A stretch of DNA of 64,000 nucleotides from NCBI GenBank assembly GCA_951406725.2, contig OX597820.1, positions 7,378,001-7,442,000 of the forward strand. Direction: 5' to 3'. The notes under the pieces were generated by a model. That model worked only from the letters and a program-made list of their open reading frames with translations, was not told the DNA's origin and did no database searches. The stretch is from Octopus vulgaris (lineage: Eukaryota). The position numbers were made by a program, and so were the translations under genes. Of the stretch, positions 2,754 through 64,000 are shown piece after piece; within the stretch, counting starts at the first letter, position 1; every line of letters begins with the position of its first letter.

Positions 2754-4332
2754 TGTTTCTTTATTAGCCACACAGGGCTGCACACAGATAGAACAAATTA
2801 CAAGGTAGAGCTTTTCTTTTGAAGGTTTAAGAAAGAAAAAAAAAAAAAAAAAAAAGGAAGGGGGAGTTTCGATCAAAAGGGATCGTAAAAGGAGAGAAAG
2901 AGGACAAAAAAAGGGGGGTTTAAAAAAAAAAAGGGGGGAGGAAAAACAATTGATCAATAGGGATCGTTATCACAGAAATGTCAATATGAAGTGTAAAGGG
3001 GAGGACAGGTGAGGTTTACCCGTGCAAAGAAAAGCCTACGGAAAAGACCACGGTAACCTCGGTCAATGATGTCACATTTTATATTTCTTTTTTTTTTTTT
3101 TTTGCAAATAAGCAACTCTCTGTTTTCGATTTCTGGGTTCATAGGACTATGCTCAAGGTGGCTTCGTCATTCATACGTGCCATTCTTGCTACATTCACCC
3201 ATCTTTTTTTAAAACATTCGCTAGACAAAACTTGCCTTTCTACTCTCACTTTCCTTTTCAAGTGGTACTTGAAGAAGTTGATGAGAGATTGACCAGAGAG
3301 GAAAGTGTTTGTCTCCAATCCTTTCAGACGCGTCCACCAGATACATTCTTTCGCCATAGCCACAAGGATGATGAAAATAGCTCTTCCTTCCCGTTTGAAG
3401 GAAGGAGGCGTGACAATATTGACGATAGACTCAGCTGATAAACCGACTCGTCCCACACGTGACAGCAGTTGTTCGACATAAGCCCACAGGTCGGAAATTG
3501 TTGGACACTGAACGAGTGCGTGCAGAACGGTTTCGTCGCTCTGACCGCATCTCGGGCAGGTCGGCCCCGTGTTTCTCGAGCCGTGTCTGTAGAGCTTATC
3601 CCGAACGGGTAGCGCTTCTCGGTAGCACTGCCAGGCCAGGGATCTCTGGAAGTTGTCCATGGGCCCTGGTCCGAACGTCGTCCTGAACAGGCGGGTCAGG
3701 TACTCCTCGTCGACGTCCAGGTTCGCCCCGAGCTCGTCGTCGTACCTCCCCTCCACTAAACCCCTATAGAATGCTTTGGTTGTGTTGAAGTCACTTAAGG
3801 TCGACCCAGGACGGCAGAGTTGCTTGAGAGCAACGCGACACTCGCGGTGCCATTCGCCCTTCCTCGGCCTCTTTTTGATCCACGACTGCAGTTCGGTCAT
3901 GGAGACGAGCTGCGGGAAAGCGTGCCTCACAAACGGCGACCACACCTGTTCACCGTCGTCTACATAGAGCCAGAGATGCCGCAGTCTCAGCGCGTGTCTG
4001 CGCATCATCAACCACGGCATGCCCAGCCCTCCTTTTAACGGGTGTTGACAGCAAATGGATCGCCTGACCATCGGGACGCATCCTTTCCACAAGAAGCGAA
4101 AGAGATGCGTTGTAGTTTGGTGATGGTAGGGTCGGGACAAGGTACGACGGTCAGGCGGTAGTAGATGACGGACGCGATGTACGTGTTCGCCACCTCCGCT
4201 CGACCTTTTAGGGACAGTTTCCTCTCGGCCCATTGCCGGGCGAGAGTGACCACCCTACTCGTTATCTCGTTCCAGTTCTTCTCCACTTGGAGGTCCGGAC
4301 CAAACCAGACCCCGAGCAACTAGACCCCGAGC

Positions 4333-4334
<2 letters not shown>
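2754..4334 (-). mobile_element. 5'-truncated Tx1/L1-group non-LTR retrotransposon (ORF2 RT thumb + zf-RVT C-terminus + 3'UTR)
   Basis: Protein LGVWFG...WAERKLSLKGRAEVANTYIASVIYY (4035-4319) joins by one frameshift near 4100 to LFRFLWKG...KGGLGMP...CPRCGQSDETVLHALVQC, with the stop at 3139. The T-rich 3'UTR ends AATAAAGAAACA. (GATA)n flanks both sides. Confidence 0.92.
3139..4319 (-). pseudogene. Partial LINE ORF2 (reverse-transcriptase C-terminal region and CCHC zinc finger), 1-bp frameshift at ~4100
   Basis: Two overlapping ORFs reconstitute ...ITKLQRI/LFRFLWKG... The LS.KGR, GGLG and CxxC-x8-H-x4-C motifs are typical of L1/Tx1 ORF2. Confidence 0.88.
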
Positions 4335-4427
<93 letters not shown>

Positions 4428-4864: not shown

Positions 4865-5060
4865 GTTTCTAATTTTGGCACAAGGCCAGCAAATTCCGGA
4901 AAATGGGATAAGTGGATTGCTTCGACGCCAGTGGTCAACTTGTCCCTATTATATCGACCACGAAAGATTCAAAATCAAGGAATTTGAATTCGGACCGTAA
5001 AAATTGTTGAAACAGCGCTAAACATTTTGCCCAGCAGCCTAACTACTCTACTGGCTCGCC
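4865..5060 (-). mobile_element. Degenerate SINE-A (alternative A2 tail)
   Basis: Diverged reverse-complement match to the SINE-A head (…ctggctcgcc), central tcgac…gaaag and the ggcacaaggcc tail. Confidence 0.6.
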
Positions 5061-5244
5061 TTGTATGCATGTACATATATGTTTATAGAGATGTATGTAT
5101 GTATATGTGTATATATGTGTGTGCATGTACATATATGTTTATAGAGATGTATGTATGTATATGTGTATATATGTGTGCATGTATGTATGCCTTTCTCTCC
5201 TTTGTTGGTGTTGCAGAACATGTTGACCGACTGCTAGCCTTGTA

Positions 5245-7034: not shown

Positions 7035-7265
7035 GGCGGCGAGCTGGTAGAAACGTTAGCACGCCGGGCGAAATGCTTTGTGGTATTTCGTCCGCCACTG
7101 CGTTCTGAGTTCAAATTCCGCCGAGGTCGACTTTGCCTTTCATCCTTTCGAGGTCGATAAATAAAGTACCAGTTACTCACTGGAGTCGATGTTGTCGACA
7201 TAATCCCTTTGTCTGTCCTTGTTTGTCTCCTCTATATTTAGCCCCTTGTGGGCAGTAAAGAAATA
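7035..7265 (+). mobile_element. SINE-A: tRNA-derived head, Deu/Nin-like central domain, A1 (Tx1-like) tail
   Basis: Head ggcggcgagctgg, B-box-like gagttcaaattcc, core gaggtcgactttgcctttcatcctttcgaggtcgataaa, tail agccccttgtgggcagtaaagaaata. Multiple copies occur in the window. Confidence 0.9.
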
Positions 7266-8490
7266 TATATATACAAGGGTAATCCCAAAAGTACACACAC
7301 ACACACACAAACCATGCTTCTGCAGACATACAGTTTGCTTTCCAACCATGTGGTTTGGGGTTAAGTCCTACACAGTACCTTGGCGAAATGCCTTCTTGTA
7401 TGGCATTTGGGACTGACCAAAGGCACTTACTACAATGACGCTGTCGCAGATCTGGATTTCTTAAGATTTTCCACACACACACATTCAAAGCTTAGTCTAA
7501 CATGCTGTCATCAGACTTAATTACTTCGGCTTCTGAAGCCTGTTCTTGGTAGAAGACGTTCATTTGATCATAGGAGCAACGTAGTTGGGGAAGTTCGTTG
7601 AGTTTGGGTAGCAAGGAGAAAGAAATGGTCGAGCGAGAAGGAATAAAGAGAAAATGAAGACGGTAAAAGGATATCGGAGTGGAAAAGGAGTGGAAGTAAC
7701 AATCTTTCGACGAAGCTGTTTGCGTCGTTTAATAGAAATTGCTATTTGATTACAGGTAAGGTGTTCTCATTTGCTTTTTGTTAGTTCAGTCAGGTGTTTA
7801 TGGAAAGTTACCTGCTCGTAGTTAAAATTGTGTGGGAGTTCATGAGATAGAAACATAAGACTCCAATTACTAATACATTTGGATTCTACAAAAACATTTG
7901 TATTCTGCTGCGATTCTTGTTACATAATTCATTCAGAATCTACAAAAAGAAATGTATTTGGATGTTTATAATATATTAGAACAAGAAATAAAAAAAAACC
8001 CAGTTGCATCATGCTCCGTTTGTGACTATCAGTAGATTTAGAATTTGAAATGGTAAAACTATTTGCAATCTGCGGCATTTGTAAAGAATGTTACATTTGG
8101 ACACTCTGCTGTTTTGTGACTTTATTTGCATTTATAAACAAATAAAAACAAGAATGATTCATCTGAATCTGCGGTTACACTTACACATGGATTCCCCCAA
8201 AGCAATTCGATTCTTATTCTGCTGCTGTTGCTGCTTCTATTACTACAGTTGGAATCAACAAAAAACAATTGCATTCTACAGCTTTTTCTTTAAACTAAGG
8301 ATGCAGTTGGAAGCTGCGAAAATAATTCTATTCTACTATAAGTACAATTGGGTTCTGCTACGGTTTCTGTGACTACAGCTTTGGCTCTGCAAAAACATTT
8401 GCGCTCTTCTACTTTTATGAACTCATTTACCTGTGGAATCTGCATCGACAATTGTTTTCCGCTGGAACTACAGATGAAATCTAAATAAAC

Positions 8491-8910
8491 AGGCGCAGGA
8501 GTGGCTGTGTGGTAAGTAGCTTGCTTACCAACCACATGGTTCCGGGTTCAGTCCCACTGCGTGGAATCTTGGGCAAGTGTCTTCTGCTATAGCCCCGGGC
8601 CGACCAATGCCTTGTGAGTGGATTTCGTTGAAGGAAACTGAAAGAAGCCTGTCGTATATATGTATATATATATATAAAATATATATATATATATGTGTGT
8701 GTATGTGTTTGTGTGTCTGTGTTTGTCCCCCCACCATCGCTTGACAACCGATGCTGGTGTGTTTACGTCCCCGTCACTTAGCGGTTCGGCAAAAACAGAC
8801 CGATAGAATAAGTACTGGGCTAACAAAGAATAAGTCCCGGGGTTGATTTGCTCGGCAAAAGGCGGTGCTCCAGCATGGCCGCAGTCAAATGACTGAAACA
8901 AGTAAAAGAG
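8491..8910 (+). mobile_element. SINE-B: tRNA head, CORE-like domain, internal TA/TG microsatellite, (AAAAGAGT)n tail; inserted in the tandem array
   Basis: aggcgcaggagtggctgtgtggtaag…ggttcagtccc…cttgggcaagtgtctt…gactgaaacaagtaaaagag. More than 10 copies in the window. Confidence 0.9.
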
Positions 8911-11171
8911 TTGTATCCTTCAGCATAAATGCCTGCAGTTACTGTGGGATTCTACAAAAGAATTTGGACACAGCTACATTTCTGAACTCATATTTGGACT
9001 CTACAAAAATATTTGACTTCTACAGTTTTTGCAACGAGATTGAAATTTGGAAACAGTTTTATTCAGCTATGACATCTATTAGAATCCACAAGAACATTTA
9101 TATCCTAGTTTAATACATTTCGAATCTATACCAATAATTGTATTATGATGCTTTGGCGACTGTAGTGTGTATTGTAATCTACAAGAACATATTTATTCTA
9201 CTGCACTGGTGACTTCGAGATGAAAATTAAAACCAGTTGTATTCTGCAGCCAATACGAGTTGTAAACTCCTTAAACAATTGTAATCTAATGTAACTACAC
9301 TTGAAATGCATATAAAGGACTCTATTGCATTTGTGATTGATGTTACGTTTGGAATTCATAAAAACTCTCGTAGTTTGCAACGATCGTCACCGCTATTATA
9401 GTTGGAATCTGGGGAGAAAATATTTATATTTTGTTACATTCGTAAATCGAGTCACATTGGAAATCTACGATTGCAATTGTACTCTGCTGCATTGGTGGAT
9501 TTGGTGATATTTCTCATCTCCAAAAACAAGTTTGTTCTGCTGCATTTGAAATCCCAAAGCACAAAATATATATCGAAGCATTTGTTACCACAGCTCCAGT
9601 TGAAATCTAGGACAACTATTGCAATCTGCTGCATTTGCGATCATTTCTATGTGGAATCTACAAGAGAAATTGCAATCTGGGACACATTTGCAAGAGGAAG
9701 CTGCAAAAGCAAAGATAGCCTCGTGCTGCTTTCGCAAATGTATTTTGCTTGTGGAACTTACAGACACAATTGTATTCTTCGCATTTTTTTGTATGTAGTT
9801 ACATTGGGTATCTACAAAAACAATTGTATTCTGCAACGTTCATGAATTTATTTACACTTTGAGTCTACAAAAACCAGTGCATTCTGCTACTTTTATGAAT
9901 ACATTCACATCTGGAATCTACAGAAATAACGGTCTCCTGTTAGTCCTATGAATGTAATTCTAATTGGAACCTGCAATGCCAACTGTCTTCTATTTTTTAT
10001 GAATGGAGATTATTGAAATCTCAAAAGCATATGTATTAAACTACTTTGGTGAATGTATTTTTGTTTGCGATCTACTAAAGAATTACGATAACATTTCGAA
10101 ATTTTTCTAAAAAATTTACGTTCGTAGTTTTTTGAATGCATTTAAATATGGACTCTATAAAATCAGTTGTATTCTGCAATAGTTACGAAGTAATTACATT
10201 TGAATTTACAAACACATTTAGAATCTACTAACCTCAATTACTATTCTGTTTTTGAAACTACAGTCGAAAGCTACAAATACATATGAATACAATCTGCTTT
10301 GTTAGTGTTTTTATATTTCGAATCTACAAAAGAAGTTGTACTCCGCCCACTTTGGGAATGGTTTTAGGTTCGGAATCTACAACACACAATTGTATTCTGT
10401 TACTTTTACTCATGGATTTACACTTGGTAAATACAAAAACAAATACATTCTGCTACTTTTTTGAATGTATTTATATCTGGAATCTACAAAGCTACTTGCT
10501 TTCCTCTAATTCTATGAAAAGATTTATATTTAGAATATGCAAAATCTAACGTAGTCTGATGCATCTTTTAGACATTTTTATTTGGAATCTAAAAAACAAC
10601 AACTGTATTCTGCTACAATTGTGAATGCAAATAAACTTTTGTAATCTGCTTGTAGAAAAGTATTATTCTGCTTTTGCGACTACATTTGGAATCTACAAAA
10701 CCAGTTATATTCTGTTACATTTATCAATTTCATTTACATTTGGAATTTATGAAAAACATTTTTTTTTCTACTTCTTTTGTGAATGCATTTATAGTTGAAA
10801 TCTACAAGAAAAGGATTTTATGCCACTGCATTCGCGGTTAGATTTGGTGCTAGATTCCAATTGCATTCTGCTACATTTAGGAAAACATTTTACATTTGGG
10901 AAACTTTGGGAAACGCATTTCTGATTGGAATCTACGAAGACAGTTGTATCCTCTTACATTTTATGTATATATTATTAGGAATCTACAAAAGCAATTGTTT
11001 ACATGGGAATATGGAACCACAGTTCTGTTCAGCTCATAATGTGAATGTGTTTATATTTGTAATCTACAAACACAATTTTATTCTGCAACTTTCGTGAATG
11101 AATTTGCATTTGGCTCTCCAAAAACAGGAATAACCTGCTACTTGTTTGAATGCGTTAGCATTAAGTTTCTC

Positions 11172-11585
11172 ATTTCTTTACTACCCACAATGGGCTAAAC
11201 ATAGAGGGGACAAACAAGGACAAACAAACGGATTAATTCGATTACATCGACCCCAGTGCGTAACTGGTACTTGATTTATCAGCCCCGAAAGGATGAAAGG
11301 CAAAGTTGAACTCGGCGGAATTTGAACTCAGAATGTAACGGCAGACAAAATACCTATTTCTTTATTACCCACAAGGGGCTAAACACAGAGAGGACAAACA
11401 AGGACAGACAAACGGATTAAGTCGATTACATCGACCCCAGTGCATAACTGGTACTTAATTTATCGACCCCAAAAGGATGAAAGGCAAAGTCGACCTCGGC
11501 CGAATTTGAACTCAGAACGTAACAGCAGACGAAAAAACCGCTAAGCATTTCGCCCGGCGTGCTAACGTTTCTGCTAGTTCGCCGC
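11172..11585 (-). mobile_element. SINE-A dimer (full copy 11355-11585 followed by headless copy 11172-11354) inside the tandem array
   Basis: Two SINE-A bodies and tails in tandem. An imperfect 17-bp direct repeat flanks them (11154-11170 and 11589-11605). Confidence 0.9.
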
Positions 11586-14500
11586 TTTGTTAACATCTAG
11601 TTTCTACTAAAACAGTTCCAATCTTCTGCTTTTGTAACTGCATTGGGAAGTTAGAAAAACATGAATTCTGCTCTTCCTTTTGTGAATGCATTTCTGTAGC
11701 AAATCTAACAAAACAATTGTGTTATGCTATCCTTATTCTGCAAATCCAGAAATACTTTTATTTGGAAACTAAAAAAGCAGTTGTATTCTGCTACATTTGC
11801 GAGTTCATGTATATTTGGAATCTACAAAACCTATTGCATTCTGAGACTGTTCAAATGCAGATTTGGAATCTGCAAAAACAAACTTATATCTTACATATTT
11901 TCTGAATGCATTAACTATTGAAATCTACAAGAACTGTTACACTCGACTACGTTTATGCATGTTTCTACATTTAGAGAATATATAATACAATTGTATTCTG
12001 TTTCTCTTAAGAATGCATTTCCATTTGCCGCCTGCAAACGCAATTCTGTACCACTGTTTGTCTGAATGCATTGTTATTTGATATCTATTACATATATTTC
12101 ACTTCTGTGAATGCATCTAGATTCGGTATCTGCTAAAACAATTGTATTCAGTTCCTATCTCTAATGCATTTACAATTCAAAACTGTGAATGCATTTAATT
12201 TAGAATCTACAAACACAATTGCTTTCTGCTACACTTGCAAATGCATTATATATGGAATATTCTACAACTTTTGTGTAACTATTTGTATTTTAAATCTGCA
12301 CAAGCAATTGTTATGTAATCCTCTGCTTTTGCGAAAACTTGTGGAACCTGCAAAACAAGTCTATTTCGCTTCTTTTGTGAATGCATTTATATTTAGATTC
12401 TGCAAAAACGGTTGCATTCTTTTGCTTCTATAAATACATTTACTTGTGGTATCTACAAAACAATTGTATTCTTCTAAATTTTAAAACGTATTTTTATTTG
12501 GAATTTACCAAAACAGTTATATTCTACGACATCTCTGAAAGCATTCATTTTGAAATTAACACAGATATTTCTATTCTCCGAATATTATGAATGCATTTAC
12601 GCATGGAATATTACTAAAAAAAACAAAACAATTCTACTCTGCTGCTTTTGTGAACATGTATATATCTATAGTCTAAAAGAATGGTATTCTACTCCTTTTG
12701 TGAATGCATTTTAGTTAGAATCTACATAAAACATTGCTACTTCTGTGGATGCAACTATATTTGGAATCTTCCAAAACTGTTATAGGAATGCATTTGCTGT
12801 TGGAATCTGCGAAAACAACACTACTCAGCTAATTTTGTGAATGCGTTTATGTCTGTCATGTGCAAAAAAAAATGTATTCCGTTGCATTTATGAAAGCATC
12901 TACGTTCGGATTAGCCACAAACAACTGCCCGGGTGCACCTTTTGCAAATGCAATTAGTTTGGGAATCATCAAAAACAAAGTCATTCTGCTAATTTTGCGA
13001 ATGCATTAACATTTGGAACTTACAAAACCAATTGTATTCCGTTCTTTTTTGAATTCATTTATATTTAGAATCTACATCCATTGTATTCCGTTGTATATAT
13101 GTGAATGCCTTTACGTTTAGTATCTACAAAAGCAATTGGATTCTCTTAATTTTGTGAATGTATTTCAATTTCGAATGCACGAAAGCAATTCAATTACTCT
13201 CCTTCTGCGACTGCATTCGGAATGTACAAATAAATTTTACTGTACTAGTTTTGTGGACACTTTTAATTTTGGAAAATACCCCAACAAATGTATTCACCTG
13301 CTTTTGAGTTAATATATGTAAAACTGCCAAAGTATTTCCACTCAGCTCCATTTGTGAATGCATTTACAGCTGGAATCCACAGAATCAATTGCACTCTATT
13401 ACTGTCGTGAATGCGCAACTATTTTTGTAAACTGCAAAACATTTGCATTCCTAAGCTTTTGGGACTGCATCTAAAGACTGCAAAAAGCCATGGTATTCTG
13501 CTACTTATGCGACTGCTTGAATTTTACAATTTCTATTGTGTTCTGCTACTACTCTAAAAGCATTTCCATTTGGATAATACAAAATTAATTCTGTCCTTCT
13601 GTTTTTAAGAATGTATTTATATTTGAAAAATACAAAAACAATTTTATTGCGCTTTTTAATGAATGCACTTTACATGGAAACTACATAAACAATTGTATTC
13701 AGCTCCTTTTACGAATGTTTTTTAGATTTGGAATCTACAAACACTTTTGTATTCCAGGAACTATGTAAATACATTTTGATTTGTAATTTGCAGAAACAGG
13801 TATATTCCTCTGATTTTACGATTACATTTGCAATCTACAAAATTAATTGCACTCTGCTAAATGTGTGAATGCAGTCACATTTCGAATCTACTAATACAAC
13901 TGCTTTTTCTGCCTTTGCGAGTACATTTGTAATCTACAAACCAACTGTTTTCTGCTCGTTTTGTGAATGAATATATTTTGGTAATTTCTAATAATAATTT
14001 GTTTTTTCTACAACTTCTATGGCACGTTTGCATTTGTGATTTACAAAAACAATTGTATCATATTTTGGAATTTACAAGAACATTTTATTGAACTACTTTT
14101 ATGAATGCTTTTGCATTTGGAATCTACAAAAAGAATTGTATTTTCTACGTTTGTGCGTGCATTTTCATTTGTATCTACGAAAACAATGGTTTTCCTCTGC
14201 TGTTGCGACTATATTTCGGATCCAAAAAGAAAAACGATTGCATGAATACATTTTCATTTGGCGACTATTAAACCAATCGCATTCTACTTTTGCAACTATT
14301 ATTATATTAGTAATTTACACAAAGAATTAATTTCTACTACACTTGTGGCTATATTCCCTCGCAGAAACGTAGAAAAAGAACTACAACTTGCTGTTTTTTT
14401 TTTTTTTTTGCTACAACTAAAATTTACAAAATACTACTCTTCTCCCATTTTCTGTGACTACAACCGGGAGTCTACAAAACAATTCTTTTCTGCTGAATTT

Positions 14501-62030: not shown

Positions 62031-64000
62031 TATAAACACACACATACACACAAATATATATATATATACTTACATACATAATTCTTGGATATATCTATGT
62101 ATGTATGTATGTATGTATGTGTGTGCGTGCAAACATACCTCAACATATACATTTGTGTGCATGTGCGTGTGTAAGAGTGTGTATGCAGGCGTGCGTATGT
62201 GATTTTTTTTAACGTGCGGAAAGTGACTCAATTACTGAGAGTCTCGTGAATGGCACTATCCATCCACGTCAGGAACTCCGGGCACTTGAGTCACTTTTGT
62301 AACTTTCTCCCGATTATAAATAAAAGGGCCGATATATATATATATATGCTTATATGGAGTTCCATTTTTCCTCTTTGTTCTACCAATCGTACGATACGCA
62401 TGCATATACATGTGTGTACATGTATGTATGTATGTATGTATACATGTATGTGTGTATATATGCATGTATGTATAGGAGCACACTTATGCATGTACTATAC
62501 ACACACACAAACACTTCTAAATCTACACACACATGATAGGATTTCATATAAGATTTTTATTTAGGACCATTTTTTTTTCTTTTCCTAAATATTGATGTCA
62601 CCAATCATATTCATTGATGGCGGACGCTGGGAATTGTGTAAAAATACTCCGCATGCAACATTTGTCAATCAAGTTCTAGATCTTACATCACCAATTACCC
62701 AGGGATAGCGGCATGTTTTTCGATGACATGTCTTTTCTTCTCCTCATCCATTCAACTTCTGTCTCTTCTCTCCCACAATCATTTTTTTTTTCATATATAT
62801 ATATTATTTGTTTCAGGCATTTCTTCTTTCACAGATGAGATATTAAGCAAGTAAAGATATAGATTTATGGCTATTTTCTTGCTTTTTGGCACCAGATCAA
62901 CTTTACTTAAGCAGAACCTATGATATATGATATTTTAGCTATGACCATTCCATATTTCTGAGAGCTTTTAGGACTGCACAAGCTGTGTCTCGTCTTAATA
63001 TAGAAGGGAAAAGTTTGATTTAAAGGTGATATGGCTGCTATCTTTTCCAGGTGGAGCGACCAGATACAGGTTAGTTAAAAGGGGCTGATTATCATTTTCA
63101 TCTTATGTCCCATTTTTACGGTAAGTTTTGCTCCTCTTTCAGATTTTAGCTGTCCGAAATCTAATCCTATTTATTGGAAAATGGACGATGCTGCAGGCCA
63201 TCTTATCATATGGAAGGTCAGGAGGATTTACAATAACTGCCATCTTTAATTGCTCCCTAACATACAATTATTGTTTTAATCACCTTCTTGGGGTTTATAG
63301 GTGTCAGATGTCAGACCTACTCCGGAAAAGAAGCCGTATTTTTAGAAGATATACAGTATGTAGAGAGGTTAAATTCCAGGCATCACTACGGAACGATAGA
63401 CTATGGCCAATACTGTCGATATTATAATGGCAGACACAGTTTCTAGAACATCTTAATTAGTTCATTTCTCAACTCATTCTTCTCACATTCCAATTCTCAC
63501 AGTTTTTATCCGCAGAGATTTTTCTCTCGCCTTTTTGTCATTTCTCAAATATTCATTAAAACAACAACAAAAAAAAAAACACAATTGTCTATCTTACAGG
63601 ATATTTTTACTCTTGTGTGGTTATATGTGTTTCCAGTTCTTGTAGGAATACTTTGCACTGAATATATCAACTCAATAAAAATTTACTTAAGGTTAAACAA
63701 CAGCAATAACGTTGATGAACAGTTCGTTAATTGTCATAAAACAGCTAAAATAGCTAAAAACCAAACTTGTTAAATAAATGTCTTATTGTAAACCTCGGTC
63801 ACTATGAGAAGCTTCAAATTAAATAGCATCTCCATCAACAGGTCATTCCATTCATTCAATGGCACCTGTATCACCGAGGCACCAGTGTACTGAACTAAAT
63901 GGAAATCGTATAATATTATTGAAAATAATTATGACTTTTTAGGCTCAGGAAGTTCTATGTACACCAACCTAATTTCTCTGACAACACTTCACGAAAGGGA

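What the first reader, a model, noticed from the sequence alone, without database searches (positions are those of the whole stretch)
2754..2805. SINE-A 3' tail matches the Tx1-like LINE 3' end: candidate SINE-LINE partnership
Seen: the LINE end on the + strand (tgtttctttattagccacacagggctgcacacagatagaacaaattacaagg) aligns to the SINE-A tail at 11355-11403 (tatttctttattacccacaaggggctaaacacagagaggacaaacaagg). By hand this gives 41 matches, 8 mismatches and one 3-nt gap. Both end in a small stem-loop (AGCC-6nt-GGCT vs GCCC-5nt-GGGT) followed by ARTAAAGAAA and have no poly(A). Established: stringent-type SINEs borrow the 3' tail of the LINE that mobilises them, and Tx1 partners are less commonly reported than CR1, L2 or RTE. 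Inference: a Deu/Nin-like tRNA-SINE is mobilised by Tx1-group machinery here.
Basis: partly seen in the sequence, partly recalled or inferred. Interest (0 to 1): 0.8.

Follow-up and report, generated by a model that had tools for sequence, protein, structure and literature searches.

The report
Octopus SINE borrows Tx1 retrotransposon tail
A very abundant short repeat (SINE) in what is likely an octopus genome ends in nearly the same 50-base tail as a likely Tx1-type retrotransposon sitting in microsatellites, so it likely hijacks Tx1-type enzymes by mimicking their RNA end, though probably those of a sister family rather than this exact element.

Summary
Confirmed: the LINE 3' end (2805-2754, minus) and the SINE-A tail (11403-11355, minus) align with 41 matches, 8 mismatches and a 3-nt gap and end at the same base. 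A second LINE copy and four more SINE tails agree; all 10 LINE-SINE tail pairs beat 1000 shuffles, while other SINE families' tails do not. The LINE is L1/Tx1-group, closer to a Tx1-named protein than to human L1, and 2 of 2 copies lie inside microsatellites. New here: a second abundant SINE subfamily has the same hairpin loop and spacing with flipped stem pairs (3 of 4 pairs change on both sides), so the hairpin looks selected. Against this exact family as partner: its loop is 6 nt against 5, and 4 of 6 SINE junctions start GGTA while both LINE copies start TAT. Verdict: a real shared tail, likely a stringent tRNA-SINE/Tx1-group partnership via a sister family. No Tx1-tailed SINE appeared in ten paper searches; Repbase and Dfam were not checked.

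The parts
2754..4335 (-). L1: 5'-truncated Tx1-like LINE copy (end of ORF2, 385-nt 3' UTR, tail), inserted in a (TATC)n array
   Evidence: (TATC)n on both sides
3139..4319 (-). C-terminal part of ORF2 with a CCHC zinc finger (zf-RVT); one frameshift near 4100
   Evidence: Pfam PF13966 E 2.5e-8; tblastn in frames -3 then -2 against P0001, P0002, P0298 at 62-78%
2754..2805 (-). LINE tail shared with SINE-A
2766..2779 (-). LINE tail hairpin, 4-bp stem with 6-nt loop, followed by a 10-nt A-rich stretch holding AATAAA
15725..15983 (+). L2: second, shorter copy of the LINE 3' UTR with the same tail, inserted in (TA)n/(TATG)n
   Evidence: 209 of 249 aligned bases identical to L1, 45 of 52 in the tail; flanks
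11355..11586 (-). SINE-A copy S1 (tRNA-like head, body, type-1 tail at 11417-11355)
11172..11354 (-). SINE-A copy S1b, head-less, in tandem with S1
   Evidence: TRF period 184 x 2.0
23117..23347 (-). SINE-A copy S2, inserted antisense into another SINE-A; 13-nt target duplication starting GGTA
22982..23449 (+). SINE-A host copy interrupted by S2; tail hairpin partly deleted; 12-13-nt target duplication starting GGTA
45847..46078 (+). SINE-A copy S3; 12-nt target duplication starting GGTA; A and B boxes at positions 11 and 73
7035..7265 (+). SINE-A copy S4; inserted in a short (TA)n site with a 7-nt duplication
18905..19104 (+). Type-2 SINE copy T2a: same head and body, hairpin with flipped stem, (ATT)n end
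27495..27698 (+). Type-2 SINE copy T2b, inside an (ATT)n array
29950..30138 (+). Type-2 SINE copy T2c, old and degenerate
4866..5062 (-). Type-2 SINE copy T2d, old

Best explanation
SINE-A is a roughly 235-base tRNA-headed repeat whose last 50 bases match the 3' end of a likely Tx1-group LINE, and it likely spreads by presenting that tail to the enzyme of a Tx1-group LINE, probably a sister family of the one in this window. Shown: the shared tail ends at the same base; the hairpin geometry is kept in three tail types, with stem pairs flipped between SINE subfamilies; the tail is a swappable module joined at 11418-11420; both LINE copies lie inside microsatellites; SINE copies carry 7-13-nt target duplications. 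Inferred: Pol III transcribes the SINE from its A/B boxes; the LINE ORF2 protein binds the hairpin (by analogy with zebrafish L2, loop specifically and stem generically); its endonuclease nicks the target; a few bases of the RNA end pair with the nicked strand and prime reverse transcription. That pairing would explain why type-1 junctions often start GGTA, type-2 junctions ATTATT and LINE junctions TAT. The direction is likely LINE to SINE by template switching, because both LINE copies keep AATAAA while 63% of the laid SINE depth reads AGTAAA.
For: Tail identity and shuffle tests. A covariance model built from the nine SINE tails alone ranks the two LINE tails first among non-training hits, 19.2 and 15.5 bits against 12.4 for the next (E 0.13 and 1, rough). 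The hairpin+10 nt+GAAA pattern has 8 hits in the window, all in these SINEs or the LINE; block shuffles give a mean of 0.04 (pattern designed on these tails). On nine SINE tails 94.4% of cells pair, 3 of 4 pairs change on both sides, covariation 0.806, 0 of 500 shuffles, best slid control 0.313; RNAalifold predicts the same 4 pairs with covariation term -1.21. In four public runs the only stem change above 4% among the 40 listed rows is the pair-keeping G.U to G-C, at 15-18%; the best-supported loose-end place at the 3' end in the three DNA-type runs is exactly the shared end, 11355; the type-2 tail branches off at 11418-11420. LINE class: proxy P0001 (69% identical) scores 315 bits against an alligator protein named TX1 149 kDa and 174 bits against human L1 ORF2p, and groups with the former at 0.979. 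2 of 2 LINE copies are in microsatellites that cover 7.8% of the window. One SINE copy (S4) is in (TA)n like L2.
Against: The LINE loop is 6 nt and the SINE loop 5 nt, and loops set specificity in ZfL2 (PMC4176376, passages). GGTA starts 4 of 6 type-1 junctions but 0 of 2 LINE junctions. Sequence identity is only 33-41 of about 50, lower than expected of a current partner. There is no compensatory change between LINE and SINE in the plain alignment, and single tails are mostly not more stable than shuffles. The covariation comes from two related subfamilies, so perhaps 2-4 events, on windows I anchored on the loop. Type-2 tails do not match the LINE in primary sequence (38-762 of 1000 shuffles). 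The tree has no L1 outgroup and no curated Tx1 references. No other LINE clade's tails could be compared.
Confidence: 0.65

Rival explanations
1. This very LINE family is the working partner of SINE-A.
For: Same end point; S4 sits in (TA)n as L2 does; the 11355 loose ends are AT-rich and in one run alternate TA. The family looks recent (20 runs in 12 studies hold 0.76-0.94 of its words), and the L1-L2 divergence (84% identical) overlaps SINE-A pairwise identity (86-93%).
Against: Loop length differs; GGTA junctions in 4 of 6 SINE copies against TAT in 2 of 2 LINE copies; tail identity 67-84% of aligned bases; loose-end agreement is only 0.38-0.39 in an AT-rich genome. This is a sub-case of the best explanation, counted inside its 0.65.
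Confidence: 0.2
2. Reverse flow or relic: the Tx1 family captured its 3' end from a SINE (or both took it from a third LINE), and SINE-A is moved by another clade such as RTE, CR1 or L2.
For: The type-2 tail has the same hairpin but ends in (ATT)n, an end type I recall from RTE/L2/CR1 partners (recalled, not tested). GGTA(TT) may be the homologue of the type-2 end. RTE and CR1 are abundant in O. vulgaris (PMC13282606). In the LINE the tail is barely more conserved than the rest of the UTR (45/52 against 164/197).
Against: Both LINE copies end precisely at the tail and keep AATAAA there, while most SINE depth has lost it. The match stops about 50 nt in, with no SINE body in the LINE UTR. SINE tails are demonstrably swapped modules.
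Confidence: 0.22
3. The SINE took the tail from a Tx1 element, but the enzyme is of the relaxed type: the hairpin is not needed and only end pairing with the target matters.
For: Weak folding energies. One full-length copy with a clean target duplication lacks half the hairpin (22982-23449), though it may have lost it after insertion. Crocodilian Tx1-Mar is inferred to move SINEU with no shared tail (PMC4494074).
Against: Stem pairing is kept through two-sided changes while loop and spacing stay fixed.
Confidence: 0.09
4. Chance or convergence around a poly(A) signal in a T/G-rich stretch.
For: Without the last 10 nt, 4 of 10 pairs lose significance.
Against: Two pairs stay at 0-1 of 3000 without those bases; the ends are co-terminal; control SINE tails fail; no other 400-nt tile of the window scores above 32, against 40-50 for the LINE tiles.
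Confidence: 0.04

Closest known systems
Stringent SINE/LINE pairs (UnaSINE1/UnaL2; bivalve V/CORE SINEs with CR1, CR1-Zenon, L2, Nimb)
   Same: 35-61-nt shared 3' tail at 72-95% identity (range given in PMC11481361); hairpin with compensatory changes; one body carrying different tails.
   Different: The partner here is L1/Tx1-group. No Tx1 pair is in Ohshima's table of 58 pairs (PMC3747384 Table 1), in the bivalve survey passages or among SINEBase's four LINE-derived regions.
Maize ZmSINE2/3 with LINE1-1_ZM; Chlamydomonas SINEX-3_CR with L1-1_CR
   Same: SINE tail shared with an L1-clade LINE; short hairpin with conserved loop and variable stem (PMC3472496).
   Different: Plant and algal L1 lineages, with poly(A) or (T)n ends; the only three L1-tailed SINEs in that survey, none from animals.
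Crocodilian SINEU with Tx1-Mar (Kojima 2015, PMC4494074)
   Same: A short retroposon inferred to use Tx1 machinery.
   Different: snRNA heads and poly(A) tails; no LINE sharing the 3' end was found, and the link rests on shared targets. Here the link is the tail and the targets only partly agree.
Microsatellite-targeting Tx1 families Kibi (TC)n, Koshi (TTC)n, crocodilian (TTCC)n/(TTTC)n group
   Same: Tx1-group ORF2 inserted inside a microsatellite (as described in PMC4494074).
   Different: Targets here are (TATC)n and (TA)n; no named Kibi/Koshi sequence was available to place it against.
Octopus OR1/OR2/OK SINEs (Ohshima and Okada 1994) and the automatic classes tRNA-Core and tRNA-Deu
   Same: Abundant octopus tRNA SINEs (PMC8967140); SINE-A is very probably among the families already in repeat libraries.
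   Different: The original paper and consensus sequences were not held, so identity is untested; none of the passages read names a partner LINE.

Membership tests
Stringent SINE/LINE pair | Homologous, co-terminal 3' tails | tested here: met
   end point also seen in public contigs
Stringent SINE/LINE pair | Conserved tail stem-loop with compensatory changes among SINE subfamilies | tested here: met
   few independent events
Stringent SINE/LINE pair | Same stem-loop, same loop, in SINE and this LINE | tested here: inconclusive
   6-nt against 5-nt loop; register slid by one; 0 two-sided changes; yet the SINE model ranks LINE tails top
Stringent SINE/LINE pair | Shared insertion signature | tested here: inconclusive
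   1 of 6 SINE junctions like the LINE, 4 of 6 start GGTA; loose ends AT-rich with low agreement
Stringent SINE/LINE pair | Overlapping activity in time | tested here: inconclusive
   2 LINE and 5 SINE copies only
Stringent SINE/LINE pair | Tail-dependent trans-mobilisation | not testable with these tools
   needs a cell assay
Tx1 clade | ORF2 with AP endonuclease, RT and C-terminal CCHC finger | tested here: met
   zf-RVT in the window; RT in P0001, and EN+RT+zf-RVT in P0008; EN and RT core themselves are cut off in the window
Tx1 clade | RT groups with Tx1 rather than L1 | tested here: inconclusive
   315 against 174 bits and 0.979 support with a TX1-named protein, but by proxy, one named sequence, 113 rows, no L1 outgroup
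Tx1 clade | Target preference | tested here: met
   2 of 2 copies flanked on both sides by microsatellite; small sample
Tx1 clade | ORF1 with zinc knuckles (recalled feature) | not testable with these tools
   both copies 5'-truncated; no genome held
tRNA-derived SINE | A and B boxes in the head, under 700 nt, target duplications, high copy number | tested here: met
   box patterns (recalled consensus) match at 11 and 73, TSD 7-13 nt; about 245,000 contigs laid in one run, both tail types; ARAGORN and Rfam name no parent tRNA
Deu/Nin SINE | Nin domain in the body | tested here: not met
   17-nt Lottia Nin motif, 0 hits at 3 mismatches; no likeness by eye to the printed domain
CORE SINE | CORE domain, including its conserved 5' 45 bp | tested here: inconclusive
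   5' motif hits 3 places, none in SINE-A; 3' half alike by eye only; 12-nt motif search uninformative, 40 hits against 71 by chance
SINEU | snRNA head and poly(A) tail | tested here: not met
   no snRNA match in the head of S3; no poly(A)

The most novel reading that the evidence does not exclude
Octopus Tx1 elements are stringent-type L1-group retrotransposons that radiated onto different short targets ((TA)n/(TATC)n, (ATT)n, GGTAY), each with its own version of one tail hairpin, and one of the most abundant octopus SINE lineages tracked them by swapping tails. This would be the first animal L1-group lineage shown by a SINE tail to read an RNA structure, and it would make Tx1, not RTE or CR1, a main engine of the octopus SINE burst.
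Probability: 0.3. Interest if true: 0.78.

Novelty: new variant of a known kind. Interest (0 to 1): 0.58.

Why it matters
Whether the L1/Tx1 lineage began with strict recognition of its RNA tail and later relaxed to poly(A) is an open question (PMC3472496, PMC3747384); the surveyed evidence came from three plant and algal SINEs. A hairpin tail shared by an animal Tx1-group LINE and a tRNA SINE gives a direct test case, with natural stem-flipped variants as ready controls. SINEs make up 11.6% of the O. vulgaris genome (PMC13282606), and no passage I read names their mobilising LINEs.

Tried and rejected
No genome is held for the window, so no genome-wide consensus or age profile was possible. 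Scans for more loci found nothing: viral contigs, metagenome contigs, prokaryote genomes. Earlier scan notes were empty. No RNA holder was listed on record. Laying contigs on the SINE tail showed no loose ends of a closer LINE tail, but 769 rows were hidden and counting was capped in two runs, so this says nothing either way; the depth profile past 11355 fits some copies running on into GGTATT but cannot be quantified. ARAGORN and Rfam gave no parent RNA. Pfam on 78 frames (12, 66 of the 99 filtered frames listed) showed no other LINE remnant to compare. ESM Atlas returned only unnamed zf-RVT clusters; cluster look-up gave no useful names. I first read the type-2 tail as unrelated and rejected that. 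I first judged the hairpin unsupported and revised. 'Deu/Nin' was rejected. No computed alignment to published CORE or Nin consensus sequences was made; that comparison is by eye plus three short motifs.

Full report
Setting. The window is animal repeat-rich DNA, likely from an octopus: the nearest named proteins to the LINE frame are from Argonauta hians (62%) and an Octopus bimaculoides gene model. No genome is held, so the work rests on the window, protein relatives, one lay of public contigs and papers.

Observation. The window holds two LINE 3' ends (L1 4335-2754 minus; L2 15725-15983 plus) and five intact SINE-A tails (S1, S1b, S2, S3, S4), plus a sixth copy with a partly deleted tail. 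The quoted pair is the best of ten; the others give 33-40 matches. On the last 50 nt all ten pairs beat 1000 of 1000 dinucleotide shuffles, and eight control pairs with two other SINE families do not. Under stricter scoring two pairs with S4 weaken (12 and 233 of 1000), and with the last ten bases removed two pairs stay at 0-1 of 3000, four at 16-48 and four fail. The likeness is therefore real, co-terminal and not only a shared AATAAA.

The LINE. L1 is a 1.58-kb 5'-truncated copy: end of ORF2 with a zf-RVT finger, one frameshift near 4100, and a 385-nt pyrimidine-rich 3' UTR. The RT core is missing, so I used P0001 (69% identical) as proxy. It scores 315 bits against an alligator protein named 'transposon TX1 uncharacterized 149 kDa protein', 174 against human L1 ORF2p and at most 88 against R2. 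In a 113-row tree its clade joins the group holding that protein at 0.979, without an L1 outgroup or curated references. Both copies have microsatellite on both sides, (TATC)n and (TA)n/(TATG)n, against 7.8% of the window in such arrays; microsatellite targeting is described for Tx1 families Kibi and Koshi (PMC4494074, parts 1-4 of 5 read). Tx1-group is likely but not formally placed. Twenty of 24 listed runs, in 12 studies, hold 0.76-0.94 of its words (the best may be the window's own sample).

The SINE. About 235 nt, with A and B boxes by recalled consensus and 7-13-nt target duplications, copies 86-93% alike, and about 245,000 contigs laid on a 151-nt piece in one run, both tail types included. 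The Deu/Nin label fails: the Lottia Nin motif has no hit, and the printed Nin and Ceph sequences look unlike it by eye, whereas the 3' half of printed mollusc CORE sequences looks alike. The CORE 5' motif is absent from SINE-A, so I do not file it as CORE either.

The hairpin. The evidence came from elsewhere. Four window copies share SINE-A's head and body but have another tail (type 2); public contigs show it branching off at 11418-11420 in 3,239 contigs of run X1. That tail keeps the loop, the closing pair and the 10-nt spacing to GAAA, while the middle stem pairs are flipped from C-G to G-C. On nine ungapped SINE tails 94.4% of cells pair and 3 of 4 pairs change on both sides; covariation 0.806 exceeds all 500 shuffles and all slid controls, and RNAalifold finds the same pairs. 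These are two related subfamilies and windows that I anchored, so the events are few. Among the listed differences in four runs, the one common stem change keeps pairing (G.U to G-C, 15-18%). A model of the SINE tails alone ranks L1 and L2 above every other non-training site (19.2 and 15.5 against 12.4 bits; E-values weak).

Which partner. Against this exact family: a 6-nt loop against 5 (loops decide specificity in zebrafish L2, PMC4176376, passages); identity of only 67-84% of aligned bases; and junctions. Four of six type-1 copies continue into GGTA, three of them with the GGTA duplicated at the 5' side; one continues into (TA)n and one into neither. T2a and T2b continue into ATTATT; both LINE copies into TAT. 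In public contigs the best-supported 3' loose-end place is the shared end 11355, followed by mixed AT-rich DNA (agreement 0.38-0.39), so GGTA is not universal. The type-1 end plus GGTATT lines up with the type-2 end plus ATTATT, which suggests that the last bases of the RNA pair with the nicked target and help pick the site (inference). O. vulgaris has 80 L1-Tx1 families, 13 of them recently active (PMC13282606, parts 1-2 of 3 and supplement search), so a sister family with a closer tail is plausible.

Mechanism. Most likely (0.65): a Pol III SINE gained a Tx1-group 3' end by template switching and is reverse-transcribed in trans by a Tx1-group ORF2 that binds the hairpin; this family itself is the main partner in about a third of that (0.2). 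The direction LINE to SINE is suggested by AATAAA in both LINE copies against AGTAAA in 63% of SINE depth. Rivals: reverse capture or a third donor with another clade as mobiliser (0.22), a relaxed enzyme with a passenger tail (0.09), chance (0.04).

Prior knowledge. Ohshima's 58 pairs include no Tx1 and only three L1-tailed SINEs, in maize and Chlamydomonas (PMC3747384, passages and Table 1; PMC3472496, passages). SINEBase lists Bov-B, CR1 and two L2 regions (PMC3531059, passages; supplement unavailable). Mollusc surveys name CR1, CR1-Zenon, L2 and Nimb (PMC4758252, PMC4824008, PMC11481361, PMC5804259; passages, one section and supplement searches). SINEU is tied to Tx1-Mar by target only. 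PMC8967140 (passages) lists tRNA-Core and tRNA-Deu as the main octopus SINEs without partners. Ten searches of the held library showed no Tx1-tailed SINE. Ohshima and Okada 1994 and Albertin 2015 were not held, and Repbase, Dfam and the Zenodo library could not be queried, so a prior database note remains possible.

Verdict. Observation confirmed; interpretation partly supported; a new variant of a known kind, interest 0.58.

Noticed in passing
window 32335-32560: Chimeric SINE: head and body of a third family (C) joined to the 3' tail of family B, another case of tail swapping.
   Followed up: no
window 23826-24212, 53570-53971, 29397-29801, 35054-35448, 34616-34984, 48406-48838, 8480-8911 and others: Family B, a roughly 390-nt tRNA SINE with a CORE-like stretch and an internal (TA/CA)n tract, in about ten copies; by eye it shares a GTCGA hairpin stretch with the SINE-A body. 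Possibly OR1/OR2 (recalled names, untested).
   Followed up: partly
window 44270-44631, 54142-54497, 39355-39547: Family C, a roughly 370-nt tRNA SINE ending in (CAG/CAA)-type repeats; its tail does not match the LINE.
   Followed up: partly
window 11172-11586 and 22982-23449: SINE-A inserts into itself: one head-less tandem joined at an internal GGTATT and one antisense nested copy at an internal GGTAC, fitting the GGTA junction signature.
   Followed up: partly
window 4308-4335: The 5' junction of the truncated LINE carries a 13-nt direct duplication, as from a template slip during integration.
   Followed up: no
window about 8370-14220: Degenerate 52-53-nt tandem repeat spread over about 6 kb, into which S1/S1b is inserted.
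   Followed up: no
protein P0004: An O. bimaculoides predicted Rho GEF 10-like model holds a stretch 83% identical to this LINE's ORF2, probably a repeat fragment inside the gene model.
   Followed up: no
proteins P0007-P0035: A sister clade of intact 1,150-aa ORF2 proteins at 38-45% identity, some clusters with hundreds of members in unnamed assemblies; their 3' ends would test the age of the tail.
   Followed up: partly
window 62250-62561: Weak Pfam TMEM169 match below its cut-off (E 0.002), probably chance.
   Followed up: no
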